Of a DNA stretch of 64,000 nucleotides, positions 1 to 63,142 are shown in pieces. Each line of letters begins with the position of its first letter. Position 1 is the first letter of the stretch. The notes under the pieces are model-generated. The model made no database searches, was not told where the DNA came from, and was given only the letters and a program-made list of their open reading frames with translations. The translations under genes and the position numbers were made by a program. The DNA comes from a virus. The stretch spans positions 1-64,000 of the IMG/VR virus record IMGVR_UViG_3300035698_035364. The stretch is one strand, 5' to 3'.

Positions 1-591
1 ATGTTTTTTATCGTTAATAAGACATCTGGTAGAATTACTATGAATGACCTGGGGGAAAAGGGGGTTACACTAGGGCCTCGTCAAGCCGTTGATCTCGATG
101 CAATTGGTGTCCCAAGAGAATTATCAGATAAGTCCCATCATCTTAAAACTGCTAAAAAAAGGGGGGAAATAGAAGTAAAAGTAAAAACAGAAGAGAAGAA
201 AAGAAAGCCTCAAGTTATACGAGAGGTTGCTGCTCCTAATAATGATTTGAAAGGCATACAATCTGATATTAGGGATCTAAAAGGGACATTACAAGAGATG
301 TCCCAACAAAAGAATGAAGGAGTGGGATTATCTAAAGAAGATTTGGCAGTATTCGCTAAGCAGATTATTGAGTCGATTCCTGCTTCTTCAGAGACAGTAG
401 TAATAAGAGAAAAAGGAGTAACAGATGAGGTGGAAGTAGAAGTAGATGAAGATCTTTTGGTGGATATAAATGCTCGCACGGTAGAGAATAAAGTAAAAAA
501 TGTTGAAGTGAAGTCAGTTAGCTATGAAAAGAAGAAGGTGACTGATACCGTAAGTAAAAATGTAGATGAACTAGAAGACCTTTTTGGTTAA
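1..591 (+). CDS. Hypothetical protein: small N-terminal globular domain, coiled coil, acidic C-terminus; candidate actin partner
   Basis: 196-aa ORF starting at base 1 (upstream context not visible); heptad-like segment NDLKGIQSDIRDLKGTLQEM; ends DELEDLFG. Confidence 0.6.
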   Translation: MFFIVNKTSGRITMNDLGEKGVTLGPRQAVDLDAIGVPRELSDKSHHLKTAKKRGEIEVKVKTEEKKRKPQVIREVAAPNNDLKGIQSDIRDLKGTLQEMSQQKNEGVGLSKEDLAVFAKQIIESIPASSETVVIREKGVTDEVEVEVDEDLLVDINARTVENKVKNVEVKSVSYEKKKVTDTVSKNVDELEDLFG

Positions 592-652: not shown

Positions 653-1699
653 ATGAGTAAAGTGTTGGGCATCGATGTCGGCACGATGTTTTTTCAGACT
701 GCGGAGAATGCAGCAGATGGAACTACTGAATTTAAAAAGATACGAAATGCTTTTGTAGAGTTAGAAGCTTCTGAAGATATTGAACAGGCATTGGAACAGA
801 ATAAATGGCAATATGTGGCTGATGGTAAGAAATACTATGTTATTGGAGAGGATAGCATGAGAGTTGCCCGTATGTTCCCTGGTAGAGTGGAACTGAGAAG
901 GCCTATGCAAGATGGGGTGTTGAATAAGGGGGAAGATAAAAAAATGTTGGTTCTAGCTAAGATGATAGAAGATTCTATTGGTAAAACTTCAGATCCTTTG
1001 TCTCTTATTTGCACTAGTGTTTCTTCTGATCCGGTGGATGATGCAGTAGATAATGTATTTCATAGGGCCAGATTAGAAGGAATGTTCAAGAGATTGGGAT
1101 GGAAGGTTAAGATCATTGAGGAAGGCCATGCCGTAGTATTGGCAGAGAGACCTGTTATTATTGAAGATGGAGAGGAAATACCTTACAGTGGGTTGGGGAT
1201 GTCTTTCGGAGCAGGAAAAGTAAACTGCGTTTTAGCTTATCGAGGGTTGTCAGTAATTGGTATGAGTGCGGCCAGAAGTGGTGACTGGATCGATAAAAAG
1301 GTGTCTGAGCAGACAGATACCCCTGTGTCTCAAGTGACTAATATTAAAGAAACTAAGTTAGATTTTGACAATATAGATCTGGACGATGATGTAATTTTCG
1401 CTCTTGATGCGTATTATGGGACTATGTTGCAATATGTGTTTAAGAATTTTGCTAATAAGTTTGCTAAAGTAAAGAGTCAATTTGAGACTCCTATTGATAT
1501 AGTAATAGCAGGAGGCACTTCTTTGCCGAAGGGATTTGTTAATAAGGTCAGGGATGTGGTTGGCGGATTGGAATTGCCGTTTGAGATTAAAGAAATTAAG
1601 CATTCTGAGGATCCTACTAATTCTGTGGTTAAGGGCTGTTTGACTCAGGCTATTATTTCTCAGAAGAAATTAGAGAAGAATGAGGGGCTATTCGGTTAG
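653..1699 (+). CDS. Actin-like ATPase (MreB/ParM/FtsA superfamily), volactin-like subfamily
   Basis: All five actin-fold motifs: phosphate-1 LGIDVGT, connect-1 IIEEGHAVV, phosphate-2 GMSFGAGKVN, adenosine IVIAGGTSLPKGF, connect-2 DPTNSVVKG. RNAF, RRPMQDG and ARSGDWID match volactin-type actins as I recall them. Confidence 0.9.
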   Translation: MSKVLGIDVGTMFFQTAENAADGTTEFKKIRNAFVELEASEDIEQALEQNKWQYVADGKKYYVIGEDSMRVARMFPGRVELRRPMQDGVLNKGEDKKMLVLAKMIEDSIGKTSDPLSLICTSVSSDPVDDAVDNVFHRARLEGMFKRLGWKVKIIEEGHAVVLAERPVIIEDGEEIPYSGLGMSFGAGKVNCVLAYRGLSVIGMSAARSGDWIDKKVSEQTDTPVSQVTNIKETKLDFDNIDLDDDVIFALDAYYGTMLQYVFKNFANKFAKVKSQFETPIDIVIAGGTSLPKGFVNKVRDVVGGLELPFEIKEIKHSEDPTNSVVKGCLTQAIISQKKLEKNEGLFG

Positions 1700-25732: not shown

Positions 25733-26830
25733 ATGAACAAAATAAAACTTAATTACGCAGCATTTATGAATCAAAGTGGGTATTCCCAGGCCGCACAAAA
25801 TTATATTTTGGCACTGGATAAGAGTGATAAATATGATATAAAATTAAGAATTTTTGGGGATAGGCCATCTAAACCCGCTATAAGCGACAAAAAGTATGAA
25901 CTTTTCATGAGCATGGTGAATAAGGATGATGATCCAGAAAGAATTTTAATATATCATTGTATTCCATATATACAGAAAAGAATAAAAGCGAAGGGGAGGA
26001 ATATAGGATTTGCTACTTTTGAGACGTTCAACCCTCCGGAAAAATGGATAGAAATCCTTAATTCTAATGATGCTATTATAGCTCCCTCTAAGTTTAATTA
26101 TAAGATTTTCTCTCATATGAAGATAAGAAAACCTATATTCTATTTACCCCATTGCATTGATATTAATGTGTATAATGCGGAAGTACAACCATTGAATAGT
26201 TACGATAGGTTTACGTTTTTGTTTATGGGTATTTGGAGGAAGAGGAAGGGATATAGGCAGTTGTTAGAGGCGTGGTTCAGAGAATTCACGGAGCAAGATC
26301 CAGTGCAACTGCTGATTAAGACAGATAAACCCAAACAAGCTCAGGGATATATTGACAAACTTAGGAAGGAAATGGGAATTAACAAAGGATTTGCCCCTAT
26401 TTTAATAGAAGATAAAATATTCGATGAAGAGACTTTGCCAAAGTTTATGAAGTCAGTGGATTGTTTGGTGTCTCCTACTATGGGAGAGGGATTTGGAGTG
26501 CCAGGGCTACAGTGTATGGCAATGGAAGTTCCCGTAATTATAACTAATTTTTCTGGCTGTCAGGATTATGCCAATGAAGAAACAGCAAATCTTCTAGAGC
26601 CAAATGGCTTTACTTTACAAAGCGATATGGATGGCATCCCTCAGTTCAGGAGTAAAAAATGGGCGTTTGTAGAGGTTAAGCAGATACAAAAGGTAATGAG
26701 ACGAGTATTGAGTCATCCTATGGAAGTAAAAACGAAGGCAAGAAAGGCATATACTTATGCCAGAGATAATTTTAATTATAATAGAATAGAAAATTTATTT
26801 TCTGAAATGGTAGAAGAGTTGTATGGCTAA
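25733..26830 (+). CDS. Glycosyltransferase, GT-B fold, family 4-like
   Basis: SGYSQAA; FTFLFMGIWRKRKG..LL.AW..EF; DCLVSPTMGEGFGVPGLQCMAMEVPVIIT (EX7E-like, second E replaced by Q). Confidence 0.92.
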   Translation: MNKIKLNYAAFMNQSGYSQAAQNYILALDKSDKYDIKLRIFGDRPSKPAISDKKYELFMSMVNKDDDPERILIYHCIPYIQKRIKAKGRNIGFATFETFNPPEKWIEILNSNDAIIAPSKFNYKIFSHMKIRKPIFYLPHCIDINVYNAEVQPLNSYDRFTFLFMGIWRKRKGYRQLLEAWFREFTEQDPVQLLIKTDKPKQAQGYIDKLRKEMGINKGFAPILIEDKIFDEETLPKFMKSVDCLVSPTMGEGFGVPGLQCMAMEVPVIITNFSGCQDYANEETANLLEPNGFTLQSDMDGIPQFRSKKWAFVEVKQIQKVMRRVLSHPMEVKTKARKAYTYARDNFNYNRIENLFSEMVEELYG

Positions 26831-45272: not shown

Positions 45273-45274
45273 TT

Positions 45275-48200: not shown

Positions 48201-51187
48201 GGCTTACAGGGGTTTCGGAAGTTGACGGTTTGTTGCCTGTAGATAAATTAGGGAATTTAAGTGCGACACAGTTTACTACGGGCCAATTAACAACAGCACA
48301 AATGCCAGGTGTCCGTCATGAAGGAAGAATCGGGGAAAGGTTGCTGCCTTTACTTCTTCCTTTAAGAACAGTAGATAATTTTGTATATGATTTAGCTGCA
48401 ACATATGATGATGAAGATAGAAATAAAATGGGTGATGCTGTTACTTTTTATGATGTTATCAATAGTGAAGATGCTGATGATTTATTAGCAGCTACTAGTA
48501 ATGGGATATGGTTGAGTCGTAATTATGGGAATGATTGGAGTCAAGTATCGACTTTTAATACCGCAGTTCATAGGTTATATAAATCTGTGGCAGGTGATTA
48601 CTATGCTATAACTAATTATAGTGTGTATATTAATGACGGCACAAGCTTCCGTTCATGGACTCAAATGGGTGGGTTAGAATATGCAAAGGTTATTAGAGAT
48701 ATCACTGAAGACAGTGATGGTAATTTATATGTTAGCACGGATCTAGGAGTGTTTAAGCTCAATAGCGTATCAGTGCCATATATAGAGGATACTTGGGAAA
48801 AGATGCCAATCTTTGGTCCTCGTAGTTCAGAGGCATATGCTATTATTTATGATGATGTGTCAGATAGAGTTTTAGTTAGTAATGAGCTTGGGCTTCTTGC
48901 ATCTAGTGATCAAGGGTTAAGTTGGGTTTATATCACGGAATTAGAGTCATTAGTGAAAATATGGGACTTCAAAAAAGAAGATGGTTATATCTTTGCTTTG
49001 TCTGTTACTGATTTATATAGGCAAGAAGCAGGAGTAGGAGATTTTGTTAAGGTCTCAGAGATTAGTGCTAATAAATGTAGAAGAATGGTAATTTTTGATG
49101 ATGAGATTTATGTAACTACTGATGTAGGGCCACAAATTTCGGTATCTGATGATATATACACCGATACGGATATGAGTTTTGCGGGGATATGGTCTTTAAT
49201 TAATGTTAATAATAACAAGTTAGTGGTTTTCTCTTTAAATACTATCGGTAACGATTTATTTGTTGGGACGGATAGGATGCTATATTTGTTTGACATAAAC
49301 AAAAAGTTATGGCTGCAATATGAACAGAAAAATACAGTCATTCCTACTTTTTATGTGGATAAGGTCTTACAAAAATTAGGGTTTTATTATAATAATGGAG
49401 AGGGCACTTATAATATTAGTTTTGATGATTTAGTTGATCAAACTGCGTTGCTAGAAGTCGCTAATAAATATGATGTTTATATATCTGAGTTTGGAGGATG
49501 GGCACATAATAAGTATGACGCTTCATTTGTTGTGTATAGGAATAGTTTTCAGTTCGGAGAGTCACGGTCATCTATAGTTCTTGATTTGAACGAATTTATT
49601 GATATTACTTATCCTACTTATACCGATAGCACTGCTCATGAGATAAAAGCGGATGAGTACAAAGCTCAGTTGGAGGCACAACTTAGCACTTTAACAGGTG
49701 CGTCTGCTCCAATCGGAGATGATTTGACGATATTAATTAGTGACATATATGAAAGTTTTGAACTGTTTTTATCTCAGATATATGAAGATGCGAGAGTAGT
49801 TGTGGATGATGATGGGAATACAGTTGATTTCGTGTTGCCACCGATTACTACTGATTTAATTAATCAGGTTATAAGCGTTTCTAATTTTGGGGTAGTAACT
49901 ACTACCGAAGAATCTGTATACGCTACTATAAATGATTTGAAGAATACTGCTTACACAGTTTCGATCAACACGGTTAACGGGGTTTGTGTATTTGGAGTCG
50001 CTTTCGATAGATATGATGAATTAACCATGGATATTTATGAAGTGACAGTAAAAAATATAGGAGACAATACTCATAGGCAAATAGAAGATAGTTTTGAAAC
50101 TATCTATTCGGGGTTCCCATCGTATTTGTCACAGGTGCAGCAGATTAATATTGCTAAGTTGGGTATTTTCACGGAAAGACAATGGCCTAATCAACAGGCT
50201 TCTTTAAGCCCTCATACTCAGATGAAAAGTATTATCCCTGTTGATGATAGTTGGTACGATACTTTGAATTCTACTATTAATTATACAGAGGAGAAGAGTC
50301 ATGGAACAGTTCCTTTATCTATTAATTATCCGTCTACAACCTTTTATAACTATGGTGCAGGCAATATTCTGGTAGGGGGCCAGGGAGGAGTATTATCTAT
50401 TGATGAAGATACTCTTGATATAGAAGAGGTATCTGTTGGAGATATTTCTGACCAGATGGTAAGAGATATTTTTGAGTATAATAACAATATATATGTGGTG
50501 ACGGAAAAGGAAATTTACATATCAGAAGATTATGGGATTACTTGGAGTGAGTTTAATAGGAGCGGGTTGCCTAATCAAATATATGTTATGGGAGTGGCCA
50601 GTAATAACCTGTTGATCGGAGCTTCGGACGGGGTGTATGTGAGGTCTTTTGATTCTCCGTTAATTGATTGGGAGAAATCGATTTCTACTACCAATCCTGT
50701 TACGGTGATGTTATCTTCTAATATCGTATTTGTAGTATTAGATAAGAAAGTTAACATTACTAGTAATGGTTATAGTTTCTCTGATACCGATATAGGAGCT
50801 AATCTTGATATCACTAAAATAGAAAGATATGGTTTCACTAATACGTATATCTCTACTAATCAGGGGTTATATTCTGATAATGGAACTTTTAACAGCACAA
50901 CTCCGGTGTTGGAAGAAATAGATCTGGGTCTTTTGGTTAATGAAATAGATGTTATTACAGTTAATGATGTGCATACGAATGATACCGATAAAATAGTAGT
51001 GGGGGTTAGTAGCGGAAGCTATGGATTAATAGAAGGTAATGCTTTGAAAGTGAAAGAATTTACTGCTCTAGATACTATACATAAAGTTTTGGTAATTAAT
51101 GATAATATATGGTTGTTCGGCGGGAATAGAGTTAAAGTGTCTTATTTGGATTATCCTATAAGATTATCTACTGGCTCTCCGTTATAG
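45275..51187 (+). CDS. Giant tail fibre/appendage protein: shared N-terminal anchor, several FN3 domains, BNR/VPS10-like propellers
   Basis: 1970 aa; FN3 YTYQIVAIDLSGNES and YTYFITSVDVYGNES; Asp-boxes SRNYGNDW, SSDQGLSW, SEDYGITW. Confidence 0.7.
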   Translation: MPFKTQHYQLQAFQFGDIYSARVDKRRFTIIDNQLAFLADQITDGVIEGWTITDNEDGTISISAGMGMISQRVIQTFGIVDYILESNSVKYLYMNAKTGEVGGLSGGSNISSVEGIDVTAPSPPTGIQQISSIAIYLASLSSYDVNLLTYLRRLLGLHDEDDAIELIPYKQIAFQWDANTEVDFSHYQVTRIDGSNVETLGTTVETVYADIGLQQDYTYTYQIVAIDLSGNESAIGEVQFATAEDTRIPASPLFVQTYPSNEALEVIWDHSPSDNVISYRVSIQPLDSNYNSDGNATVATVSSVGDDPFSSTYIIFENLNNNTNYEVTVYAVTAAGLLSEGISTREYVQFLAGAGEINNIDIEFATVNRQINEAQSTGLRANLTWRYRQDPYLPFVDKFLITFVENGTRTSEVIELLGSEVDVPCSSGAVDDICYSHSIDYLPYIVEGRIEYESIKEYTPYLVTIQTTDEDENASNGIVTRVNRTPVTDILPSVTDFSIEKKNDNSLFLKWVNPIESHFSYNRLTITITNLGGTINDPSIFEETIYINDQNTGKSDSFTIPSDQFDVNYRYNVEITSYNIFNTQGSRLETFEQFTEAADNLRPDAPLNVEIFSGDSQLYLQWEPDVSGELEFYKIYRAEYQLYLDTTNFAVIATIPASLDNFTDYSVPNGTAYTYFITSVDVYGNESLNPDDDTHLPVLSFSSTPAEMLSLSPPTNLEVGASSNEHDAQLVWDATPGLFDGYEILRSEGNNYSFQVIAHTPVSQVTYIDQDALLKDSVIYYYIVKKYKNESSLYVTSSAVSLSNSVHIGIVTTSNGIQNVSIDLSSVIDLENYQDPITTKTNNLILTHDHKNTENVDKRIELRAQVFVTDWATTDYQNYTTTEDIEGAGSYILSISGTINEEYFKDTQGNTDVARLRQAQARESPVLYEIDEENGKIVFNEPLYVDATTIDIPGLLLTFDSNVVTPYSDIPVVSLGLTGVSEVDGLLPVDKLGNLSATQFTTGQLTTAQMPGVRHEGRIGERLLPLLLPLRTVDNFVYDLAATYDDEDRNKMGDAVTFYDVINSEDADDLLAATSNGIWLSRNYGNDWSQVSTFNTAVHRLYKSVAGDYYAITNYSVYINDGTSFRSWTQMGGLEYAKVIRDITEDSDGNLYVSTDLGVFKLNSVSVPYIEDTWEKMPIFGPRSSEAYAIIYDDVSDRVLVSNELGLLASSDQGLSWVYITELESLVKIWDFKKEDGYIFALSVTDLYRQEAGVGDFVKVSEISANKCRRMVIFDDEIYVTTDVGPQISVSDDIYTDTDMSFAGIWSLINVNNNKLVVFSLNTIGNDLFVGTDRMLYLFDINKKLWLQYEQKNTVIPTFYVDKVLQKLGFYYNNGEGTYNISFDDLVDQTALLEVANKYDVYISEFGGWAHNKYDASFVVYRNSFQFGESRSSIVLDLNEFIDITYPTYTDSTAHEIKADEYKAQLEAQLSTLTGASAPIGDDLTILISDIYESFELFLSQIYEDARVVVDDDGNTVDFVLPPITTDLINQVISVSNFGVVTTTEESVYATINDLKNTAYTVSINTVNGVCVFGVAFDRYDELTMDIYEVTVKNIGDNTHRQIEDSFETIYSGFPSYLSQVQQINIAKLGIFTERQWPNQQASLSPHTQMKSIIPVDDSWYDTLNSTINYTEEKSHGTVPLSINYPSTTFYNYGAGNILVGGQGGVLSIDEDTLDIEEVSVGDISDQMVRDIFEYNNNIYVVTEKEIYISEDYGITWSEFNRSGLPNQIYVMGVASNNLLIGASDGVYVRSFDSPLIDWEKSISTTNPVTVMLSSNIVFVVLDKKVNITSNGYSFSDTDIGANLDITKIERYGFTNTYISTNQGLYSDNGTFNSTTPVLEEIDLGLLVNEIDVITVNDVHTNDTDKIVVGVSSGSYGLIEGNALKVKEFTALDTIHKVLVINDNIWLFGGNRVKVSYLDYPIRLSTGSPL

Positions 51188-51197
51188 GATTAGATAA

Positions 51198-53168
51198 ATG
51201 GCATTTACTTTATCATATGAGAGAACCTACACAAGATGCTATGATGTAGACATCGACGGCAATTTTGCTATCGGAGGATCAGACGCAAATATTACTACTT
51301 TCCTATTTTCCAGGCAAGTAGATGGGACATGGTTAAAGCATACTGTTTATAACACACATAAGGGGGGATCGGCTATAGAGGATGTGTGGGCTGTTAGTGG
51401 GTTGACTCTTGGCAAGGATGGTAGAGGAGAAGTATTCGTTTTTTATAGGGATGAGAATGATACTTGGGATGTTTACAATGCTGCTTCCAGAAATCCTTCT
51501 GATCCGGAAGATGGGAAATCGTTGGTTGCCGAAGATGGTCTCTTGGGTGATCAATTTGGAATTGATGTTAGTATCAAGAACACTATTATAGCTATCGGGG
51601 CACAAGGGAAAGATTCAAATAAAGGGGCTGCGTATATATATAAGAAAGATGGAGAGTTTTGGGGCCAAAGTGGAAGCACTATCTATCCTTTGATAAGCAC
51701 AGCAGATGATTACTTTGGTAATACTGTTGCTTTGAGTGATGATTTTTTGGTGGTGGGGGCCAAAGGTGACAATAGTAGTCAAGGTGCAGTGTATATATTT
51801 GAAGAAGACGAGGATACAGGAGAATGGGAACAAGTAACTAAATTATTAGCATCTGATGGAGTAGAAAACGATCAATTTGGAGGGGCAATATCTATCGATG
51901 GAAATTATATCGTCATTGGGGCGAAAAATAAAACTTCAGATGCAGGAGAAGCATTCGCAGGTGCGGCATATATATTCAAATATGATGGCAGTAATTGGTA
52001 TGAAATAGAAAAGATAATAGGAGTGGGGGAAACGATTTATGAGACAAACTATTTTGGATCTTCGGTAGATATCGATGGAGATTATGTAGTTATTGGTGCG
52101 ACAGGTGCGAAAACACATGGTACGGTGGACGTATTCTCTAAGAAGAGAAGTTGGGGACAATTAGTTAAATTAACTGGAGATCTGGGAGCCGGTGGTGGAT
52201 CAGGGGATAATTTTGGATATGGAGCAGCCGTATCTGGTTCTATTATTATAGTTGGGGAACCTAATAAGCCTAGTATACAATCTACTTACTTTTTTGAAAA
52301 TCCTGCTTCTCAAGTTAGATTAGCACAGGAATTTGAAGTTGATGCAGCATACGTGCCTTCAAAAGCTACTGTTTACTTGAAAAGGGTAGGGGCCAATGTA
52401 AGTAATAATTGGGAGATTTATAATAACCAAAGAACAGTTATAGATGCAACGAATTTTTCTACTATTACTCAAGGAAGAAATAAAGTCATTTTTTCAGATA
52501 CAATATCAGACTACACAGGAAATGGATATATGATATTGTTAAGTGAAGCATATAGCTCCTATAGTATTATCAACTATCCGGTTAGGGCAGTGATAGACGA
52601 CACTTTTGATTTGTGGTTGAGGTATTATGCATTTGGAACTTCTATTTTAAACGTTGATATTCTATTGGACGGTGTAACTATAGCAACTATAGAATCTGAG
52701 TTAACGGATCCATCATTAAATTTGTGGGATTGGCTATCGACCAGTCTCACTTTGCCTGATACAAGTGAGCATACGTTAGGAATAAAAATAAAGGATAGTG
52801 ATTGTGCTGTGGATAAGATATATATAGCCCCAGCGGGTAGTGCTTCTCCATATGCGGCCGGACCATCTTATAGTGTTAGCCCTTATTTAACTGCACATAT
52901 GCAAGTGTATACTTCTAATGGGTCTCCTGATGAAATGTTATATATATATGATTACAAAAATACTATTACAGAAATCGTTCAAGATGATTGGTACAACTTT
53001 AATATTAATGTTGTTAGTAACGATTATGGTTATTTAGTTAAAGAGAATTTTGTGGGGAATTACTATTTAGTGATGTCATGCTCTGGGACAGACAACGATA
53101 ATTTTATTATTTGGGATATGGCAAATAACGATGAATATCAATCACTGCCATCTGCTATTAAAATATAG
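51198..53168 (+). CDS. FG-GAP (integrin-alpha-like) beta-propeller protein with a C-terminal CBM-like beta-sandwich
   Basis: Five clear repeats: DQFGIDVSI..IAIGA, DYFGNTVAL..LVVGA, DQFGGAISI..IVIGA, NYFGSSVDI..VVIGA, DNFGYGAAV..IIVGE, several followed by GAAYIF-type motifs; YTGNGYM...WDW...HTLGI. Confidence 0.85.
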   Translation: MAFTLSYERTYTRCYDVDIDGNFAIGGSDANITTFLFSRQVDGTWLKHTVYNTHKGGSAIEDVWAVSGLTLGKDGRGEVFVFYRDENDTWDVYNAASRNPSDPEDGKSLVAEDGLLGDQFGIDVSIKNTIIAIGAQGKDSNKGAAYIYKKDGEFWGQSGSTIYPLISTADDYFGNTVALSDDFLVVGAKGDNSSQGAVYIFEEDEDTGEWEQVTKLLASDGVENDQFGGAISIDGNYIVIGAKNKTSDAGEAFAGAAYIFKYDGSNWYEIEKIIGVGETIYETNYFGSSVDIDGDYVVIGATGAKTHGTVDVFSKKRSWGQLVKLTGDLGAGGGSGDNFGYGAAVSGSIIIVGEPNKPSIQSTYFFENPASQVRLAQEFEVDAAYVPSKATVYLKRVGANVSNNWEIYNNQRTVIDATNFSTITQGRNKVIFSDTISDYTGNGYMILLSEAYSSYSIINYPVRAVIDDTFDLWLRYYAFGTSILNVDILLDGVTIATIESELTDPSLNLWDWLSTSLTLPDTSEHTLGIKIKDSDCAVDKIYIAPAGSASPYAAGPSYSVSPYLTAHMQVYTSNGSPDEMLYIYDYKNTITEIVQDDWYNFNINVVSNDYGYLVKENFVGNYYLVMSCSGTDNDNFIIWDMANNDEYQSLPSAIKI

Positions 53169-53179: not shown

Positions 53180-56100
53180 ATGTCGATTAATTTAATTGAA
53201 TATTATAAAGCAGCTAACACTGAGTCATCTCTTGCAGCCGGTGTATGGAATATTAATTACGATAAGAGGCATTTATTCAAAGTTTCTAGTGATTATGACG
53301 CTGTGAATGAACATTTGGAAATAATTTCTTTACCACCTTCTAATGAGGCTACAAGTAATGTTAGTATTTTTTCTGGCCAGTTAGATCAGAAGCTCGACAA
53401 TACTAAGATTACATCGTTAAGTGCTAGGGCAGAAAAAGTAGAGCTAGACTTAGATGATAGGATAGTAACTGTTATTATTGATCAAAGTGGTAGTATGACA
53501 TGGAATGATAATGGAAATTATCGACATCAGTTAGCAAAGAATTTGGTTGATAAGATAGAGTTTAATTATCCAGGAACTGTAAATTATAATCTGATTAAAT
53601 ATGACTCTGCATTAGCTAGTATGTTGTTTTTTGGTCTTATTGAGCAAGAAGGCTTAGATATATATGACTTCAACAGTTTGGCTAAATTAATGTTGGCCGA
53701 TGAAAATGCTAATTTTGCTGGTATAAGGGTCATTAGGAATGCAAATCGTTATCCAACTTCTATTGTTGATGGAGAGTTAGTCTCAGATGGGTTTATCAGT
53801 GCAATATTTAATACAGATTTAACTGAAAATAGCACCTATTATTATACTGTTTATACATATGATAATGACTTAAAATTCAGTGAAGGGGCAAGAATAAAGG
53901 TCACTCCTAGAACAAGGAATGTGCCTAGAGGTATTTTCTTATTTAATACTGTAGTCGATTCAGATGATTTGAGCAAGGGCAATCCTTTTGTGGGGAAGGG
54001 TGTTAATAACGATGATAATGTTACAGGGTTGTGGCATTTTAATGAAGGGGAAGGGCAGAACTTATATGATTTTAGTGGATCCGATGTTATACTAACTATT
54101 GATGATCTTTATCCTACATGGTATGACCAAATTTTTACTCCTGCTGGTGACTCTGCTTTGTTTTTTGATGGAGATACAGACAGAGCGTACTATTCTGATA
54201 CCGGCAACGATTTAAGGTTGTTTCATAATGATGATAATAATCAAATAACTATTATGGGGTGGATATTCCCTTATGATCTAGAAGACTCTGCTATTGTAAC
54301 AAGAGAAAGTGCTGGTGGGGGTGAGATTAACTATACCTTAGGTATTCAGTCTGGCCAGTTGGCATTTCATAATGGAAGGAATTCTACTACTACTAGTTTA
54401 TCTTTAACAGCACATAAATGGCAGCATGTGGCAGTGACTTACAACATAGATGCTGAGCAAATTACGTTTTATATTAATGGTGTAGCCCAATCTCGTAATT
54501 GGATAGGAGATGCTTCTGTCCCTGACTCTACAGACAGTATGGAATTTGTTGTTGGACTGTCTAACTCTTCCTTCTTTTCGGTTCCGTATAGAGGGAAGAT
54601 AACAGAGCTTAGTATCCATAATACTGTTAGATCTTCGGAATATATTAATGCACAGATTATAGATGCTACTATTTATGGAGATAATAGTCTAGCGATAGAT
54701 ACTGAAGCGACTGGGTTGAAGGATGATAATGGAGATCGATTAGTTGTTTTGAAATATGAGATTCCTTTAGATTACAATTTCGCTGGTGGTGAAGTTGTAA
54801 TAGTAAGAAACACTGAAAGAATACCTACATGGGAGGAAGATGGGGACATTATCCATCAGCAAGTTCCATCAGCGGGGCAGAATTATGTAATTGATTCTGA
54901 TGATTTTGTTTTTGGGGAAAAATATTATTATAGAATATATTCTAAAAATTCTTTGGGGAACTCTAGTTTTTCTTCGGACTCTCCTTCTTTAGAAGTAACT
55001 ATACCTACCTCACCGACAACAGATTATTTTCTATCTTTAGGTGAAACATTAGCTTCTCCTGAATCTCCTTTGAATAATTTACCTTTAATTACTCCAGGTA
55101 ATACCAAAGTATTTTTAAGATGGAAAAATGTTGCTCCAATAGACTCTAGGATACAGAGAGTCAGAGTATATTATTCTTCTATTGGATACCCTACTGTTGA
55201 TAGTAGTGGTGGGTCAAATAGTCAATTAGTATTTTCTGGATTGCCAACAGATGAAAAGTTTGTTCATAGAGATCTAGTTAATGGATCCAATGCCTACTAT
55301 ACAATAGTTAATGTAGATAAGTATGGTAGGGCTTCTAATTATGACGCTGATGGTGACCAGGTAGAAGATTTTTTACAAGCTGCAACTGTCCCCTCTGCTA
55401 CTGCTGATGAAAGTATAATTCCTCTACTAGATGTAGAGAACTTACATTATGAGTTGATAGATGGTAACTCTGTTAGCGTCAAATGGGATATGCCAACGAA
55501 AAACCCTGAAAATATTGAGGCATATTTCGATCAGACTATTATTATTTATGCTTCTATTACTGATGAGTTTGGGCAAGCAATATCTGACGACGCTTTGACT
55601 AAAATGTATATTAGTGCCTCTATCTCTCAGGAAGAACAGGCAGAGGATGTTTTTGGAGCAGCGGATACAATAGATTTTGTAGATGTGGACTCTTATACTT
55701 TCTTTGTTTCTAAGACTAGTGATGGTATTATAAAAGCAGTTTTAAAGATGTCGTCTAATCCTTCTATCATGTCTCAGATTAAAGGAGCATCTTTTACTAT
55801 ACAAGTTAAAACCTATATTCCTAAGGAAGGCTATGTGGCTCCTGATGTCACAACTGCATCTACGACAGGATTAGAAGAGTATGCCACTTTAATTGAGACA
55901 CTAGCCGGGGGAGAGCAACAGGCATCGACAACATCATCTTCTGATAATGTGTTTGAATATTTTTCAAAACCGTTAACTGTGAATTTCACTAATCCATGGG
56001 AAGTTGAGTTAGAGAGTAGAGATAATCAAACAGTTGATCAAAGATGTTATATCCAAAAAGTAGATTCGGTTACTGGCAATACTCAGTTGCAGGTAGTTAG

Positions 56101-59100
56101 GGAACACTTTGATGGTGTCTATATGAAGGCATCTGCTCCTTTTGTAGCTAGGGCCAAATTAAAATACAAAGGAGAGCCTATTGACGCAGGTTCTATACAG
56201 ATAGCGGTTTGGGATGCTGAGTTTGATAATCTTTGTGCTAATGCTGGTTCTCCCGGATCGGGTGGATTTGAGGGGCCAAAAATACAGGTTAGCTCAACTG
56301 TTTTACCTCCTGATAATAGAATGGATATTTTGCAGGGGACAGAGCAGGGGTTGGGGAGCGACGGATTGTCCACCGACATACCTATTTCTTATGTTGATAT
56401 CCCTTTGTATGCTCCTGATATGCCTCATGCAGTTAGATTGTTTGTTAAGGGAACTAAATCAGGATATTCTTCTGTTAAAAATATGTATGTTTTATTCCAG
56501 AGTATTTTACGGATGGATATACAAACTGATAGTCCAGTGGTGGATGGCCATGATGTATCCGAACAACAAGCTAATGCTTTTTTGATTAACCCTGATTTTC
56601 CTAATTATGAGGTTAATGATTCAGATAAGTCTTTAATCACTTACCCTACTGACAATACGGTAGTTCAATGGTCTATTGAGAGATTAGTAGGAGATATAGA
56701 TAGAACTATTTATTCTATTGATAATGTTCCTATTGCTAATGGAGTTTATTCTTATACTAGAAATGGGCTTGCCAGGAATGTATTTTTAGGGCCTATACAG
56801 AAACCAGATAAAGAGATAAATGAGACACATGAAATTAAAGCAGTAATCGTTTATAACGGGCTAACTGCTGTAGCACGACAATTTGTAAAACTTAAGTTTA
56901 ATCCACGCGAATATGATAAGTTCGGTGCTAAATTTTTAATGGAAATGGATGGAGGATGGAGAGGAATAGGAGATACCTTATCTTGGAGAGGATCGGGATG
57001 GTTAACAGCAGGTACATATCCTTTATGGGCAGATGGAACTGACTACAAGCGTGTTAAAATAGCTCGCGACCCTCAGAACGTCATTGACTCCGAGTTTGGT
57101 GCGGGGCCTTGTTTTAGAACATGTGCTACTCAAGATGGTTCTCAGGTGTTTGAATTAAATTCAGGTCAAGTGGTCCATATCCAGAGTGAAGATCCTGATA
57201 TAGAAATATTGCATGGAGAAATATACGAAGATTTAGATCCTTATACTGGCACTTATACTCTCAGGCAAGGGGAAGATGGATTCTCAGATAATGGGGAGGC
57301 ATTTGTATCTTTAAACAGCGAGACGGAATCTGATATCACTTATTTTTATATTAGGGCTAATAAATTCACTCCAACTTCGGGTCAGAGATGGCATACTAAT
57401 TGTGACAAGGCAGAAGCTATTAACGAGTGTAAATGTTTGGGGTCGAATCCTAATATTGGCTTGACTGATTGTGACACTCCAGGATGGACCCCTGTTATAT
57501 ACTTATCTGGCTCAACTACTTTATTTGTGGATGATCAGCCTCTAGTATTAACTGGAGGTGGTGATTTTGAAACAGGAGTGCCACCTTGTCCTGTGTGTTT
57601 AAAAGAGCCTTTAACTACTTCTACTATTTCTCGCACTATAACTGATTATTATTACAGAGAGAATCTTATTAATCCGTCTCTATCGGGTATGACTGGAGTT
57701 ACCTCTGAAGTCGATAATAATAATTTCTTAGGGCCAAATGGCGATGATGCCCTTATCCGATATACAACAGATATAGATATTAGAATGAAAGTATTATGGA
57801 GAGGGTCTGCTGTTCCAGATAATACTCCGGTGTATATCTCTATTGGCAATAATGACGGCAATACATTTTTTGTGGCAAGTAGGAATATATATTATACTCA
57901 GACTGATGAAACAACTGTTCCTCCTCATAGCTACGTAGATATTAGGATAGGCACTAGAAAGCCTCCTACTGCGAGGGTCACTGAGTTGGTATACGCTTAT
58001 ACTAATTATGATGAAAATGGGCAGACTACTAGAGAAGTTGGAGAAAGATACTCACTAACTTTAGATCATACTGATATCCCTAAAGATATTGTTGTTAGGG
58101 AAGAAGAGCAAGAGCCTGAGGTTCCTCCTACTACTCCTGAACCAACTGCATTTTCAGCTACTATAGAAAGATATAATATACTGTCTAATGAGTGGGACAC
58201 TGTTAGTTCGATGCAGGATGGCAGAGGAAATCTATTTGCCGGTGTAGTTAATGATACGATATATGCGATGGGAGGGTTAAAGAATAATAGCCTTGATCTA
58301 TCATCTAGAAATGAGATTTATGACCCTGTAGATGATGTATGGTCAGATGGGGCCATAATGCCTACTCCTAGAATGGCTGGTGCTGCTGTAACTATAGGTA
58401 ATGATATTTACACAATAGGAGGAATAGGAGTAGATGATGTGATAGGGAATGGAGGATTCAATGTGGATTCAACCGTAGAAGTATATCATACTGATACGGG
58501 TACATGGGAGACTCTAGCATCTATGCCAATCATCAATGAAGGAGGAGTTTATGAGGAGAAGTTGGGAGTTGCTTTTGGAACTGCTCAGCATATCGTAATA
58601 GCAGAGGGAAGTTTAGAAAGAGACTATATCTATATCTTAAGTGGAATTAATACTGTTAATTACACTGGTGAATTATTTTTGGCCGAGAAATATAATGAGA
58701 GAGTATTACGATACTCTGTGCAAGATGATGCATGGGAATATTCTGAAGTTTTAAGAAGTGATGAGTTAGTCGCTTATCAAAGAGTAGCACCTTTGTCGTT
58801 GGCATACAACGATAGGATTGTTGTGTTTAATGGAGCAATAGAAACTGAAGGGGCATTTATTTATCCTAAAGAAGATTTTAGTGTTACTATAGAGGAGGAT
58901 TTTGCTAAGTCTGTGGGGGCTGAATGGTTGCAATTTGGCAGTGGATATTTAGAAGATTTCCCAGAGCCAAAATTCCAAGCATCTCTAGTGAGATATGATT
59001 TAAATCCTTCTACCGATCATTCCGATTATTATATTTTCGGAGGGTATAACAAAGAGTCGCAAAATCTAGATATTGTAGAAAGGTTAACTACTCATGTGTC

Positions 59101-59299
59101 TGAGTTCGTGTATGAAAGTAGCTATGAAGGCAATCCATCTGCAAGATTAGCATCGTTGATATCTTCTAAGCATGGCATGTCGGCTGTTTTGTGTAATGCT
59201 CCTGATGGCTCTTTAGGAGATTTCCCTTATGTCTATTTAATAGGAGGATATGTGACAGCCAGGGATAATAACTATGTAGATATTGGTTTTGATATATAA
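53180..59299 (+). CDS. Giant adhesin-like protein: N-terminal half vWA (DxSxS), FN3-like, LamG and Ig-like domains, C-terminal Kelch propeller
   Basis: VIIDQSGSMTWND; GLWHFNEGEG...ITIMGWI...WQHVAVTY...FYING...GKITELSIHN; Kelch IYAMGG..EIYDPVDDVW..MPTPR..IYTIGG. Confidence 0.8.
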   Translation: MSINLIEYYKAANTESSLAAGVWNINYDKRHLFKVSSDYDAVNEHLEIISLPPSNEATSNVSIFSGQLDQKLDNTKITSLSARAEKVELDLDDRIVTVIIDQSGSMTWNDNGNYRHQLAKNLVDKIEFNYPGTVNYNLIKYDSALASMLFFGLIEQEGLDIYDFNSLAKLMLADENANFAGIRVIRNANRYPTSIVDGELVSDGFISAIFNTDLTENSTYYYTVYTYDNDLKFSEGARIKVTPRTRNVPRGIFLFNTVVDSDDLSKGNPFVGKGVNNDDNVTGLWHFNEGEGQNLYDFSGSDVILTIDDLYPTWYDQIFTPAGDSALFFDGDTDRAYYSDTGNDLRLFHNDDNNQITIMGWIFPYDLEDSAIVTRESAGGGEINYTLGIQSGQLAFHNGRNSTTTSLSLTAHKWQHVAVTYNIDAEQITFYINGVAQSRNWIGDASVPDSTDSMEFVVGLSNSSFFSVPYRGKITELSIHNTVRSSEYINAQIIDATIYGDNSLAIDTEATGLKDDNGDRLVVLKYEIPLDYNFAGGEVVIVRNTERIPTWEEDGDIIHQQVPSAGQNYVIDSDDFVFGEKYYYRIYSKNSLGNSSFSSDSPSLEVTIPTSPTTDYFLSLGETLASPESPLNNLPLITPGNTKVFLRWKNVAPIDSRIQRVRVYYSSIGYPTVDSSGGSNSQLVFSGLPTDEKFVHRDLVNGSNAYYTIVNVDKYGRASNYDADGDQVEDFLQAATVPSATADESIIPLLDVENLHYELIDGNSVSVKWDMPTKNPENIEAYFDQTIIIYASITDEFGQAISDDALTKMYISASISQEEQAEDVFGAADTIDFVDVDSYTFFVSKTSDGIIKAVLKMSSNPSIMSQIKGASFTIQVKTYIPKEGYVAPDVTTASTTGLEEYATLIETLAGGEQQASTTSSSDNVFEYFSKPLTVNFTNPWEVELESRDNQTVDQRCYIQKVDSVTGNTQLQVVREHFDGVYMKASAPFVARAKLKYKGEPIDAGSIQIAVWDAEFDNLCANAGSPGSGGFEGPKIQVSSTVLPPDNRMDILQGTEQGLGSDGLSTDIPISYVDIPLYAPDMPHAVRLFVKGTKSGYSSVKNMYVLFQSILRMDIQTDSPVVDGHDVSEQQANAFLINPDFPNYEVNDSDKSLITYPTDNTVVQWSIERLVGDIDRTIYSIDNVPIANGVYSYTRNGLARNVFLGPIQKPDKEINETHEIKAVIVYNGLTAVARQFVKLKFNPREYDKFGAKFLMEMDGGWRGIGDTLSWRGSGWLTAGTYPLWADGTDYKRVKIARDPQNVIDSEFGAGPCFRTCATQDGSQVFELNSGQVVHIQSEDPDIEILHGEIYEDLDPYTGTYTLRQGEDGFSDNGEAFVSLNSETESDITYFYIRANKFTPTSGQRWHTNCDKAEAINECKCLGSNPNIGLTDCDTPGWTPVIYLSGSTTLFVDDQPLVLTGGGDFETGVPPCPVCLKEPLTTSTISRTITDYYYRENLINPSLSGMTGVTSEVDNNNFLGPNGDDALIRYTTDIDIRMKVLWRGSAVPDNTPVYISIGNNDGNTFFVASRNIYYTQTDETTVPPHSYVDIRIGTRKPPTARVTELVYAYTNYDENGQTTREVGERYSLTLDHTDIPKDIVVREEEQEPEVPPTTPEPTAFSATIERYNILSNEWDTVSSMQDGRGNLFAGVVNDTIYAMGGLKNNSLDLSSRNEIYDPVDDVWSDGAIMPTPRMAGAAVTIGNDIYTIGGIGVDDVIGNGGFNVDSTVEVYHTDTGTWETLASMPIINEGGVYEEKLGVAFGTAQHIVIAEGSLERDYIYILSGINTVNYTGELFLAEKYNERVLRYSVQDDAWEYSEVLRSDELVAYQRVAPLSLAYNDRIVVFNGAIETEGAFIYPKEDFSVTIEEDFAKSVGAEWLQFGSGYLEDFPEPKFQASLVRYDLNPSTDHSDYYIFGGYNKESQNLDIVERLTTHVSEFVYESSYEGNPSARLASLISSKHGMSAVLCNAPDGSLGDFPYVYLIGGYVTARDNNYVDIGFDI

Positions 59300-59300
59300 T

Positions 59301-62300
59301 ATGGCTAATGAATATAAAATAATTAAATGCAAGTTAGATGGTAAGCAGTCGGTATCTGTCCCTATTGATATTAAGCAGAATGGGAGATATGTCGAAGAGA
59401 GGGTTAATGTACAAGTACAAGGATTTTTGAAGTTCAGTGAAACTGCTGCTCAAGAATCTCAGGTGAATGATAAGACTGCTATTTAACCAGTGCTGTTTAC
59501 TTCCAATCAAGTTGCAGTTAGTGGTGGTCGAGTGGTTATTACTTTGCTCCCTCGATCTGAGGATTTTTTCACAGATAGCAGCACATTAGCTGCCAGAGAT
59601 CCTGTTCAAATGGCTAATGTTGTTTCTCAGGGAGGTATTAGTGCTGATGAGCAAATAACCCAACCGACAAAGGAACCTGTATTTATTAGAATAGAAACAG
59701 GGCAAATCCGTAATCCATATAAGATTTCTATTGGGGTATCTATTACTCCGGAGAGTGCCGGTGGGCCTGAAGGTCAGACTGTTGATAGGGGAACGGATCC
59801 GGAGATAGAAGTGCAAGAAGATGTGAACTCTTTATTCCAGAAAGAAAAAAGTAGAGCAGCAAGTAATTTAGTTATTGATTGTTATAATGATGATGATTGG
59901 ATCCCGGTGGTGGAAACTATTCTAGGAGACAATAACGGAACACGATCACAAATAAATCAGGAGTTGGATGATATGGCCAATTCTACTCCTTTTGGTGCTT
60001 CTACGATGTATGATGCTGTAGTAAAAGGAGCCAGGTTATTATCTGATACTGCTTTAGATGGAACAAGGAAGTTAATATATTTGCTTACGGATAATGAAAC
60101 AGCCGCTTCTCTGGCCACGGTGGATCAATCTTTGGAAGAGGTTAATGCTATTGATGGGGATAAAGAAGTCCCTATCTTAATAGCTAATATGGCTATTGTA
60201 GATCCTCAAACATTATCAGTAAAGATCAATAGTTCTGATACAAGGGATATTAATAAGTTAGCGTTTCTAACTGATGGGCAAAGTGTGACTGTTGATAGCG
60301 AGAGTTATTTAAATGATGTGACTGCTATATTCTATCATGAGGCAGCAGGATCATTAGGATATGGTACTTACGAATTTACAATGGATCTGGGAGAAGAAGT
60401 ATTAGTCAATTATATAACGGCTTATTTTGATGTGGTCTCAGACAATTCTAATGCTACGTGGTCTATTGAAACAAGCACAGATGGATATAATTTTACAGTC
60501 ATAGATGCTACTAATGATTATGATGAGACTGTTGATTATAATGAATTATTTGCTAGATATATTAAGTTTAAAATTATATTAGTTACTGGTTTTAATACAG
60601 TGGAAGACGAATATGGGGCATATCCTGAATCTCCTGCTTTGACTTCTGTGGTTGTTGTATATAACACGTCTAAAGTAGCATACTTATATCTGAATAAAGA
60701 AGAGGAGGAGATTCCCCCTTACCAAATGACGTTAGCGGTGAATGCCAATGAAATTAATGAGGATCAAATAAAAATTGGTGTGGCCAAATCTGATTCCCAT
60801 AATTGGAGTGATTTTTCTACAGATTCTCAACCGTCTGTTAGCCAGAATGGTAAGGTTGTTATCCCAATAAGATTTTCTCAAGATATTACGGAGTTTCAAC
60901 AAGAGCCTTTGAAAAAGGTCAATAACCATATTTTAAAGACGGAGTATGGCAGTTGGGATTCTTATGCTACTGTGTTGTTATATGATGATAATGATGAGGT
61001 TATTCCTACTACCTATTATGTGCTGCAACCAAGAGAAGGGATAGTGGTTTTTAACTATGCTTTGCCAAATGCTTATGTCGATGGGGATTATAAAATTGGT
61101 GTTTTGAATGGCACTAATTATAAGGTTGGTTTGAAACTTACTAATAAAACGGAAGCTGCTACGTTGGATATTTATGGGGTAGGTTATCTTTACACAACTG
61201 GTAGAAATTTACTTCCTCCACTCTCTAAAGCGTTGCCTGAAGTAAGAAGTGCTATTATCACTAATGAAGATCCAAATAGATTTAGCCCAATAACAATCTC
61301 ATATATCTATTTTGATGCTAATTTTGATCAAGAAGTAACAGCGTCTCGTATAATCAGGTGGTTCATTAATGGGAAGCAAATTACTTACCTGGATAATTTG
61401 ATTAGTTGGAATGATATCGATGACCCTCAAGATCCTTTGTATGAAAATACTTCTTTGTCTTATCCTAACACAGAAGACCTGGATGGAGACACTATAGATG
61501 AATGGGCCAGGAAACAAACTGATTCTATTTTGCAGCCAGGAGATAAACTTCATTTTGAAATACAGGTTAGTGATGGAGAATTTTTAAGTCTAACAGGGAA
61601 ATCTAATATAGTTGAAGTGGCTGAGTCTGTGCCAGTGTTGGATGGGATATTTGTAAAAGCGAAAGATGAAAATAATAATATCATTGATAGATTGGCCACT
61701 GATAACCAAGCAGTGATATATCCTTCTATTGATACTATATTCCATTCTGACGGATCTGATAATGCATCAGAGATAGTGTGGTATGTAAATGATGAGGTAT
61801 TTAAGAGAGGGACATATGGGCAGGAAGTTCTTACTGGTCAACCTCCTATCCATGAAATATGGATCAATGAAATAGGTCAAGTGAATTACTTAGATTATGG
61901 TTTAAGAATATCTAATGCTATTTTTGTTCAGGTTACTCCTAGAACTTCTTCATCAGTAGGGACTCCCGTGACAAGTCCGGTAGTGGTTGTAGAGAATGCT
62001 TTGCCTAGAATTTTTAATGTGAATTATGCTACTACTAGTTATGTAGCAGGTAGAGACTTGGTTTTGGTGTGGGACTTCTTTGATTTTGAGATTAATGAGA
62101 TAGGCAGTTTAGATACAACTAGTCAAACAGATCAAACTAGTGTTAAATGGTTTAGGAAGAATCCTGGGGGGATCTTTGAAGAGGTGTATGTATATAACGA
62201 TCATACTACAACTACTTTGGATGAGGTATTTAATGATACAGATTATCAGGGGCATATATCCACTAATTTAGGCACTCATGCTTCTACTGTCGATGGTAAT

Positions 62301-62414
62301 GTTATAGTGACAGGGCAACAATGGTATGCTCAGATAATACCTCACGATAGTTTAGATGAAGGAGCAATTGTTACTAGTGAGATTATTACCGTTACTGCTA
62401 GTAGCAATGTATAA
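59301..62414 (+). CDS. Protein with C-terminal half vWA and A9-like Ig repeats, interrupted by an in-frame TAA at 59484-59486
   Basis: Track ORFs 59283 and 59490 share a frame, separated only by TAA CCA; ATG 59301 sits 1 nt after the upstream stop; PFGASTMYDAV, KLIYLLTDNE, INKLAFLTDGQ. Confidence 0.7.
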
Positions 62415-63142
62415 TGATACATCAAATAAGAACAACGAAACCTCTTATTGACATCATTCTATTAACTCATAATAACCTGGAAAATACGAAACAATGTATA
62501 GATGCATTATATCGTTACACGGGTGATTTTGGATTAATTATCTTAGATAATGCTTCTACAGATGGGACGAAGGCATATATTAAGGATTTAGCGGGGCAAC
62601 GTGACAATATCTCTTGCATGTTCGAGAAGACTAATACCTATATTGTTGAAGGACGAGGTTTTGCCTACGAAGTGTGTTTATTGTCTAAGCACCAATCAAA
62701 ATATGTTATGTTTCTGGATGCGGATCAATTCTGTTCAGATGGATGGTTTGATAGTTACTTAGAGTTATTGAAAGATTATGATATCGTGGGAGCAGAAGCG
62801 TGGAGCATGCGGCCAGATGATTTCTATCCTTGTGCTAAAGTTGAATCTAAGGGTGAGATATTTAATTACGTGGGAGTAGGTGGGATGATGATGAGGCATT
62901 CGGTAATAGACCATATAGGTCTATTTGATCCTAGATTTAAGAAATTCTACTTTGAAGATCCTGACTTTTGTTGGAGGGCACATCAACAAGATTATAAGAT
63001 AGGTTGGAATAATTCTGGTAAAATTGTGCATAAACCTCATAAACTTTTAGTTGATGCAGAGAGAAAGAAGTTCTTCTTTGACAATTGGAAGAGGTTTCAG
63101 GAGAAATGGGAAGGTCACAAAATCCCGATGTTTATTATGTAG
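62414..63142 (+). CDS. Glycosyltransferase, GT-A fold, family 2-like
   Basis: IDIILLTHN, IILDNASTDGT, MFLDAD (DxD), GLFDPRF..YFEDPDFCWRA; TAATG overlap with the upstream structural gene. Confidence 0.93.
   Translation: MIHQIRTTKPLIDIILLTHNNLENTKQCIDALYRYTGDFGLIILDNASTDGTKAYIKDLAGQRDNISCMFEKTNTYIVEGRGFAYEVCLLSKHQSKYVMFLDADQFCSDGWFDSYLELLKDYDIVGAEAWSMRPDDFYPCAKVESKGEIFNYVGVGGMMMRHSVIDHIGLFDPRFKKFYFEDPDFCWRAHQQDYKIGWNNSGKIVHKPHKLLVDAERKKFFFDNWKRFQEKWEGHKIPMFIM

What the first reader, a model, noticed from the sequence alone, without database searches (positions are those of the whole stretch)
53460..60350. vWA/MIDAS domain split between two genes: metal-dependent adhesion site completed in trans
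Seen: the 53180 protein has only the first vWA elements (strand IVTVIIDQSGS with DxSxS at 53480-53494, helix YRHQLAKNLVDKI, strand VNYNLIKY), then about 1900 aa of FN3/LamG/Ig/Kelch. The next gene, in a different frame, has the missing remainder (helix RSQINQELDDM, PFGASTMYDAVVKGARLL, strand KLIYLLTDNE, helix VDQSLEEVNAI, strand VPILIANM, DINKLAFLTDGQSVTV; about 59940-60350) but no DxSxS strand. Established: MIDAS needs DxSxS plus a later T/S and D in one Rossmann fold. Inference: two large virion proteins clasp each other by rebuilding one vWA domain, acting as an assembly checkpoint or a metal-gated receptor sensor. I know of no described example in a phage tail.
Basis: partly seen in the sequence, partly recalled or inferred. 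Interest (0 to 1): 0.88.

Follow-up and report, generated by a model that had tools for sequence, protein, structure and literature searches.

The report
vWA/MIDAS domain split across two genes
Two neighbouring giant tail-region genes of a huge phage each encode one complementary piece of a single metal-binding vWA adhesion domain; in all relatives the pieces lie in separate genes or more than 1,500 residues apart in one chain, so the domain must be rebuilt from two distant parts.

Summary
The 2039-aa protein (53180..59299, gpA) carries only the first vWA elements: strand 1 with an invariant DxSxS, helix 1 and strand 2. The next gene (59301..62414, gpB) carries the rest, from about strand 3 on, with an invariant Ser and Asp at the other two MIDAS positions.

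- **gpB alone:** its model matches solved vWA domains (Z about 12) but lacks their first 45-50 residues.
- **gpA alone:** the fragment does not fold.
- **Together:** ipSAE 0.87 against 0.01 for the best control. gpA strand 1 lies beside gpB strand 4, as in a vWA fold. Halves of a known fold can pass from memory.
- **Gene boundary:** it is real, with 39 of 49 related loci split and 10 fused.

The reading needs reframing. In all 81 relatives with both pieces in one chain, they lie 1545-2857 residues apart. The domain was therefore probably discontinuous before the genes separated.

"Assembly checkpoint" and "receptor sensor" remain untested. All evidence is computational. I rate it a new variant of a known kind, of moderately high interest.

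The parts
53180..59299 (+). gpA, 2039 aa: N-terminal vWA fragment, then FN3-like, LamG (aa 349-489), further beta domains and a Kelch propeller (aa ~1657-1790+)
   Evidence: ORF; translation; Pfam
53453..53626 (+). vWA part A (gpA aa 92-149): strand 1, DxSxS loop, helix 1, strand 2. This is the stretch that touches gpB in the complex model.
   Evidence: VWA_2 profile 2-48/107; interface residues 92-127, 129-130, 134-147, 149
53480..53494 (+). MIDAS motif D101-x-S103-x-S105
   Evidence: D 151/152, S 150/152, G 151/152, S 151/152 across the family; invariant
59297..59303 (+). gene junction TAA-T-ATG: gpA stop, one base, gpB start, with a frame change
   Evidence: equivalent tight stop/ATG junctions (-1 to 15 nt) in 38 of the 39 split loci; in L055 no ATG was found
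59301..62414 (+). gpB, one gene of 1035-1058 aa in relatives; here it reads 61 aa, TAA, then 974 aa in the same frame
59484..59486 (+). in-frame TAA at codon 62 of gpB, where the 28 relatives read at this position have Tyr or His; GTG follows 3 nt later at 59490
   Evidence: TAA also ends gpA, so it is not recoded
59889..60359 (+). vWA part B (gpB aa 134-290 counted from GTG 59490; add 63 for read-through numbering): about strand 3, helices 2-3, strands 4-6 and the C-terminal helix
   Evidence: AF2 model; Foldseek; VIA-align Z 11-12 over model 138-290; interface
60000..60002 (+). S171 (in 'FGAST'), at the MIDAS Thr/Ser position
   Evidence: S 215/218 plus T 2/218
60090..60092 (+). D201 (in 'LLTDNE'), the MIDAS Asp after strand 4
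   Evidence: D 217/218
51198..53168 (+). upstream neighbour, 656 aa with four FG-GAP repeats (integrin-alpha-type propeller). It keeps this position in relatives, and its C-terminal half is fused to the front of gpA in some.
   Evidence: Pfam; tblastn and ORF coordinates

Best explanation
One vWA (von Willebrand A) domain with a complete MIDAS metal site is built from two sequence pieces that are never adjacent. Part A (gpA aa ~93-145) supplies strand 1 with DxSxS, helix 1 and strand 2. Part B (gpB aa ~134-290 from GTG 59490) supplies about strand 3 and everything after it, including the MIDAS Ser171 and Asp201. In the likely ancestral form, both parts sit in one ~3000-aa tail-region protein. 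There the vWA domain closes a loop of ~1500-2900 residues (FN3, LamG, Ig-like domains, Kelch propeller) inserted at the strand 2/strand 3 hairpin. In the window's clade a gene fission inside that insertion left the two parts on two translationally coupled gene products. These must then associate by fragment complementation, and the metal site lies at their interface. Shown: complementary content, conservation, co-occurrence, a real gene boundary, and models. Inferred: that the parts really fold together, that metal binds, and that the proteins are virion parts.
For: (1) Complementarity. gpA matches VWA_2 profile positions 2-48 only. Homologues P0116, P0135 and P0143 match positions 1-53. The gpB model aligns to integrin I domains, vWF A1/A3, ITIH1 and others at Z 11-12 (rmsd 2.1-2.9, ~130-140 residues). 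The target ranges start 45-50 residues into the domain, for example alphaM 178..318 and vWF A3 974..1110; Foldseek E 1e-5. (2) gpA 1-260 alone leaves aa 142-157 and 168-176 below pLDDT 50 and forms no sheet at strand 1. (3) Complex model of gpB 110-292, Mg and gpA 85-182: ipSAE 0.87/0.88/0.87, best of 3 controls 0.01. That mark was reached by 58 of 80 solved complexes and 2 of 110 mismatched pairs; these counts hold only roughly, because my own alignments and a ligand were used. The runs share at least 73% of contacts, and partner pLDDT is at least 63. gpA 96-99 pairs with gpB 196-199 (strand 1 beside strand 4), and gpA 136-139 touches gpB 144-145 and helix 150-158. gpB pLDDT is 74-77 with gpA against 50-51 with decoys; gpA pLDDT is 63-68 against 34. 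(4) All five MIDAS positions are near-invariant over a family diverged to ~25% identity: D101 151/152, S103 150/152, S105 151/152, S171 215/218, D201 217/218. (5) The parts always travel together. They share one ORF or adjacent ORFs in 12 of 12 IMG/VR loci and across the metagenome loci. In 81 proteins holding both, the gap is 1545-2857 aa and never short. (6) The split is genuine: 39 split and 10 fused junctions.
Against: There is no experiment; everything rests on sequence and predicted structure. Two halves of a well-known fold can score high in a complex predictor by likeness to solved vWA domains, so the pass shows compatibility, not binding. gpB shows no vWA signal by sequence profiles. 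The gpB-alone model is moderately confident (pLDDT 70.6) and places an extra strand (aa 127-131) that might partly stand in for strand 1. In this window gpB carries a stop at codon 62, so this copy may not make the full protein.
Confidence: 0.72

Rival explanations
1. The same two parts pair between different molecules rather than within one gpA-gpB pair. Part A of one subunit would complete part B of the next, so vWA closure links giant subunits head-to-tail into a ring or chain on the tail, even in the fused relatives.
For: Repeated fission at several points of the insertion shows that chain connectivity is dispensable: part B sits at aa ~180, ~330, ~530, ~750 or >2000 in different proteins. 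In the split form complementation is intermolecular in any case.
Against: Nothing distinguishes 1:1 pairing from swapping. No oligomer model was run, and translational coupling (TAA-T-ATG) fits either.
Confidence: 0.14
2. The two pieces are independent. Part A is a small conserved module or vestige with its own role. gpB carries a truncated vWA-like domain that is stable alone, using its own strand at aa 127-131 in place of strand 1.
For: The gpB-alone model has four strands and pLDDT 70-90 over the domain. There is no sequence-level vWA hit for gpB. The ~1250-aa family P0183-P0202 shows part A without part B in the same protein.
Against: This cannot explain invariant DxSxS on one piece together with invariant Ser and Asp on the other. 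It also does not explain strict co-occurrence, the unfolded part A when modelled alone, or structural alignments that start at gpB 138-139, not at the 127-131 strand. P0183-P0202 end with the 'GGGG..PP..L.EPL' motif found at about aa 1480 of gpA. So they look like a further fission product whose partner may lie downstream.
Confidence: 0.12
3. The two-gene arrangement is an assembly or sequencing artefact (a frameshift near 59299) of a single fused gene.
For: Fused relatives exist, and the window does carry one likely point error or mutation, the TAA at 59484.
Against: 39 independent loci have a stop followed by ATG within -1 to 15 nt (no ATG was found in one, L055). They use TAA, TAG or TGA and varied frame relations, with a conserved '...FDI*' end and 'MA..' start. 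The window sits in a 70-row all-split clade.
Confidence: 0.02

Closest known systems
Integrin alpha I domains and vWF A domains (canonical vWA/MIDAS, Pfam PF00092 and PF13519)
   Same: Same fold for the part that can be compared (Z 11-12). Same five metal-ligand positions: DxSxS, Ser/Thr and Asp.
   Different: Canonical domains are one contiguous ~190-residue stretch. Here the first ~50 residues and the remaining ~150 lie on different proteins or 1545-2857 aa apart. Ser replaces the usual Thr at the fourth position.
Nested-domain adhesins: the integrin beta I-like domain inserted in the hybrid domain; pilus tip adhesins RrgA, SpaC and PitA; ITIH1
   Same: These are vWA/MIDAS adhesion modules in multidomain surface proteins where one domain is inserted into a loop of another. 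SpaC, PitA, ITIH1 and integrin beta chains are among the structural hits.
   Different: In those proteins the vWA is the inserted (contiguous) domain or carries short arms (from my own knowledge). Here the vWA is the interrupted host domain, the insert is about ten domains long, and the chain has been cut inside it.
Natural split genes reassembled by fragment complementation (for example split subunits in phages and bacteria)
   Same: Gene fission with adjacent, translationally coupled halves; fused and split forms coexist among relatives.
   Different: Usual fissions fall between domains. Here the fission leaves a single small domain and its metal site shared between two chains. I found no paper describing this for a vWA domain.

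Membership tests
vWA / MIDAS domain | Alpha/beta fold with a central sheet flanked by helices | tested here: met
   gpB model 138-290 aligns to vWA structures at Z 11-12, rmsd 2.1-2.9, 130-140 residues; Foldseek E 1e-5. The missing strands 1 and 2 are supplied by gpA in the complex model, ipSAE 0.87 against 0.01 for the best control. These are predicted structures only.
vWA / MIDAS domain | DxSxS motif at the end of strand 1 | tested here: met
   gpA D101-Q-S-G-S105; 150-151 of 152 family members keep each residue.
vWA / MIDAS domain | Thr (or Ser) metal ligand before helix 3 | tested here: met
   gpB S171 in 'FGAST': S 215/218, T 2/218. The following residue (T172 here) is variable.
vWA / MIDAS domain | Asp metal ligand after strand 4 | tested here: met
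   gpB D201 in 'LLTDNE': 217/218.
vWA / MIDAS domain | Pfam model match above the curated cut-off | tested here: inconclusive
   gpA scores 17.1 bits against a cut-off of 27, covering profile 2-48/107 only. gpB has no hit at E<1. Homologue P0116 reaches 27.6 bits with the same partial match. A partial match is what a fragment should give.
vWA / MIDAS domain | Domain formed by one contiguous stretch of one chain | tested here: not met
   The parts are on two proteins here. In all 81 single-chain relatives they are 1545-2857 aa apart. This is the point of difference, so I file it as a variant, not an ordinary member.
vWA / MIDAS domain | Binds a divalent cation at the MIDAS | not testable with these tools
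   Mg was included in the complex job, but ligand contacts and coordinates were not returned.
Phage tail or virion protein | Located in the structural module, or detected in virions | tested here: inconclusive
   A Phage_tube_2 gene lies at 6889-8010, followed by an unbroken same-strand run of giant ORFs with adhesion-type domains. There is no family hit for gpA or gpB themselves, and no proteomics.

The most novel reading that the evidence does not exclude
The MIDAS metal site is a lock shared by two polypeptides. Divalent-cation binding would drive or stabilise the joining of part A and part B, possibly between neighbouring subunits, so that giant tail proteins are closed or chained by a metal-dependent fragment-complementation clasp. 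This would be a natural split-protein system in which an adhesion domain serves as an assembly joint and still presents a ligand-binding metal.
Probability: 0.2. Interest if true: 0.8.

Novelty: new variant of a known kind. Interest (0 to 1): 0.62.

Why it matters
vWA/MIDAS domains are among the best-studied adhesion modules and are treated as self-contained units. If this holds, it shows three things:
- The fold tolerates a ~2000-residue, multi-domain insertion at the strand 2/strand 3 hairpin.
- The fold can be divided between two gene products with its metal site at the interface.
- Huge phages use it to close or join their giant tail-region proteins.

It would provide a natural split-vWA pair for protein engineering. 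It would also give a concrete structural hypothesis for an uncharacterised, widespread family of huge-phage proteins: 114 cluster representatives at E ≤ 0.001, all giant or fragmentary. For annotation, domain-by-domain HMM scans miss such domains, because neither half passes a cut-off.

Tried and rejected
- **Phage databases:** INPHARED (DNA and protein) and an IMG/VR single-protein scan found no relatives. Relatives came from the large protein collection and metagenome contigs instead.
- **PDB sequence search:** the gpB family profile against PDB sequences gave no vWA hit at E ≤ 1.
- **P0135's full Pfam VWA hit:** this hit (aa 2104-2290) first looked like proof that the gpB part is a complete vWA. 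BLAST showed it is an extra domain inserted upstream of the homologous segment, so it was rejected.
- **hhalign:** parts A and B against that single extra vWA sequence gave nothing usable.
- **Context of the ~1250-aa part-A-only family (P0183-P0202):** the IMG/VR scans found nothing or returned only ordinary gpA relatives.
- **Promoters and terminators:** promoter-like sites in 51-64 kb were at chance level, and no terminator-like hairpin separates gpA from gpB.
- **Recoding of TAA:** rejected, because TAA also terminates gpA.
Full report
**What is in the sequence**

The window is the first 64 kb of a 103-kb IMG/VR virus record with an estimated completeness of 21%. That implies a phage of roughly half a megabase. 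A tail-tube gene (Phage_tube_2, 6889-8010) is followed by an unbroken same-strand run of giant ORFs.

- **gpA:** 53180..59299, 2039 aa.
- **Junction:** the gpA stop TAA (59297-59299) is followed after one base by ATG 59301, in another frame.
- **gpB:** the frame opened by ATG 59301 is closed by TAA at 59484-59486. It reopens three bases later at GTG 59490 and runs to 62414, giving 61 aa plus 974 aa.
- **Relatives of gpB:** they are 1035-1058 aa long. The 28 whose N-termini I read have Tyr or His where the window has TAA ('DKTVVYPVLF' against 'DKTAI*PVLF').

So gpB is one gene that here carries a single-base nonsense change or a sequencing error. TAA is a normal stop in this genome, since it also ends gpA.

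**The observation**

The DxSxS lies at 53480-53494 as stated.

- Pfam VWA_2 matches gpA aa 97-144 to profile positions 2-48 of 107 and then stops (E 0.009, below cut-off).
- After that come FN3-like, LamG and other beta domains, then Kelch repeats.
- Homologues give the same truncated match at better scores (P0116 27.6 bits, positions 2-53).
- gpB has no Pfam vWA hit at E<1, and its family profile finds no vWA among PDB sequences.
- gpB does carry 'FGAST', 'KLIYLLTDNE' and 'LTDGQSVTV', which resemble the middle and end of bacterial vWA domains.

**Structure predictions**

gpB aa 64-480 alone (79-row alignment, pLDDT 70.6) forms an alpha/beta unit followed by a jelly-roll.
- Foldseek puts vWA domains first: 4fx5 at E 1e-5, then integrin beta I-like domains, ITIH1 and SpaC.
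- VIA-align gives Z 11-12, rmsd 2.1-2.9 and 130-140 aligned residues for model residues 138-290.
- The matched range in every classical target starts 45-50 residues into the domain: alphaM I domain 178..318, vWF A1 1323..1459, vWF A3 974..1110, alpha2 I 189..335.
- gpB therefore lacks strand 1, helix 1 and strand 2, and begins at about strand 3.

gpA aa 1-260 alone (35-row alignment) gives a confident helix 1 and a confident FN3. It leaves aa 142-157 and 168-176 below pLDDT 50 and builds no sheet around strand 1.

**Complex prediction**

The job held gpB 110-292, Mg and gpA 85-182.
- ipSAE was 0.87, 0.88 and 0.87, and the best of three controls scored 0.01.
- That mark was reached by 58 of 80 solved complexes and 2 of 110 mismatched pairs. 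The counts hold only roughly here, because my own alignments and a riding ligand were used.
- The runs share at least 73% of contacts, and partner pLDDT is at least 63.
- The lowest-error contacts are gpA 96-99 with gpB 196-199, which places strand 1 beside strand 4 as in a vWA sheet.
- gpA 136-139 (strand 2) touches gpB 144-145 and helix 150-158.
- Each fragment loses confidence without the other: gpB 74-77 falls to 50-51, and gpA 63-68 falls to 34.

Caveat: these are halves of a fold with many solved examples. The pass shows that they are jointly compatible with one vWA fold, not that they bind.

**Conservation**

Across 152 part-A and 218 part-B sequences, down to about 25% identity, all five MIDAS positions are essentially invariant.

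| Position | Count |
|---|---|
| D101 | 151/152 |
| S103 | 150/152 |
| S105 | 151/152 |
| S171 | 215/218 (plus 2 Thr) |
| D201 | 217/218 |

W108 and D110 in gpA and G169 in gpB are equally fixed. A vestigial fragment would not keep this pattern.

**Relatives: split and fused**

- Close relatives are split as here, and the two genes share contigs.
- Of 49 loci that cover the junction, 39 have a stop. In 38 of these an ATG follows within -1 to 15 nt; in L055 none was found. They use all three stop codons and varied frame relations. The other 10 loci are one open frame.
- The boundary is therefore a real, conserved gene boundary and not a frameshift artefact.
- More than 40 more distant relatives are single proteins of 2900-3450 aa that cover gpA and gpB end to end and keep both motif sets.
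- In all 81 proteins that hold both parts, the gap between them is 1545-2857 aa (median 1989). No contiguous version exists among the sequences recovered. That set includes a scan of 1.84 billion representatives, which found only 114 relatives of part B, all in giant proteins or fragments.
- Parts A and B co-occur in 12 of 12 IMG/VR loci.
- On a FastTree of the gpB part, the split/fused label needs at least 3-5 changes.
- With the most distant group as outgroup (eight fused rows plus one split row), parsimony makes fused ancestral, and the window sits in a 70-row all-split clade. The root is an assumption and the tree is a quick one.
- Part B also occurs at about aa 330, 530 and 750 of shorter proteins, so fission has happened at several points of the insertion.

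**Interpretation**

The simplest account is a discontinuous vWA/MIDAS domain. A very large multi-domain insertion sits at the strand 2/strand 3 hairpin. The domain closes that loop in the single-chain form and joins two chains in the split form. Three metal ligands come from gpA and two from gpB.

What the metal site binds is not addressed by any result here. It could be a host surface ligand or a partner in the virion. 'Virion protein' itself rests only on position downstream of the tail-tube gene.

Whether pairing is within a pair or between neighbouring subunits is open. I found no paper describing a split or discontinuous vWA domain in phages.

**Limits**

- No experimental data were available.
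- The earlier first-stage notes had already flagged the TAA and the FG-GAP neighbour. I verified the former and partly verified the latter.

Noticed in passing
window 59484-59486: In-frame TAA at codon 62 of gpB, where the 28 relatives read at this position have Tyr or His; GTG 59490 follows 3 nt later with no obvious ribosome-binding site. It is either a sequencing or assembly error, a real nonsense mutation, or a case of reinitiation. No stop at this position was seen in the related loci.
   Followed up: partly
window 51198-53168; L059, L061, L064, L065 near 9000-10250: The upstream 656-aa protein has four FG-GAP repeats (integrin-alpha-type propeller). The gene order 1970-aa protein, FG-GAP, gpA, gpB, GT2 is kept in nearly all loci. 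In the ~3250-aa relatives, the N-terminal ~270-aa extension in front of part A is homologous to the C-terminal half of the FG-GAP protein. So FG-GAP, gpA and gpB can all be one chain, an integrin-like pairing of propeller and MIDAS domain.
   Followed up: partly
P0183-P0202 (about 1250 aa), alignment A4: A family carrying part A (strand 1 to strand 3, then FN3) at aa ~200-270 but no part B. It ends with 'GGGG..PP.F..L.EPL', a motif found near aa 1480 of gpA. It is probably a further fission product of gpA, but its genomic context could not be fetched.
   Followed up: partly
P0135 aa 2104-2290: One fused relative has an additional, complete and contiguous vWA domain (Pfam VWA positions 1-160/174, E 7.8e-9). 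It is inserted between the gpB N-domain and part B, so a normal vWA and the discontinuous one coexist in one protein.
   Followed up: partly
window 653-1699: A 348-aa protein matches Pfam Volactin (PF25216) at E 1.8e-61 over its whole length. This is an actin-fold protein of an archaeal-type family encoded by a huge phage, just upstream of the tail module.
   Followed up: no
window 25733-26830 and 62414-63142: Two glycosyltransferase genes (GT4/GT1-type and GT2) are embedded in, or end, the run of giant structural ORFs. The GT2 follows gpB in 46 related loci. This may point to glycosylation of these proteins.
   Followed up: no
window 39303-51187: Two consecutive ~1980-aa proteins have weak Reg_prop (two-component regulator propeller) matches; one also has an FN3. 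Otherwise no family is assigned.
   Followed up: no
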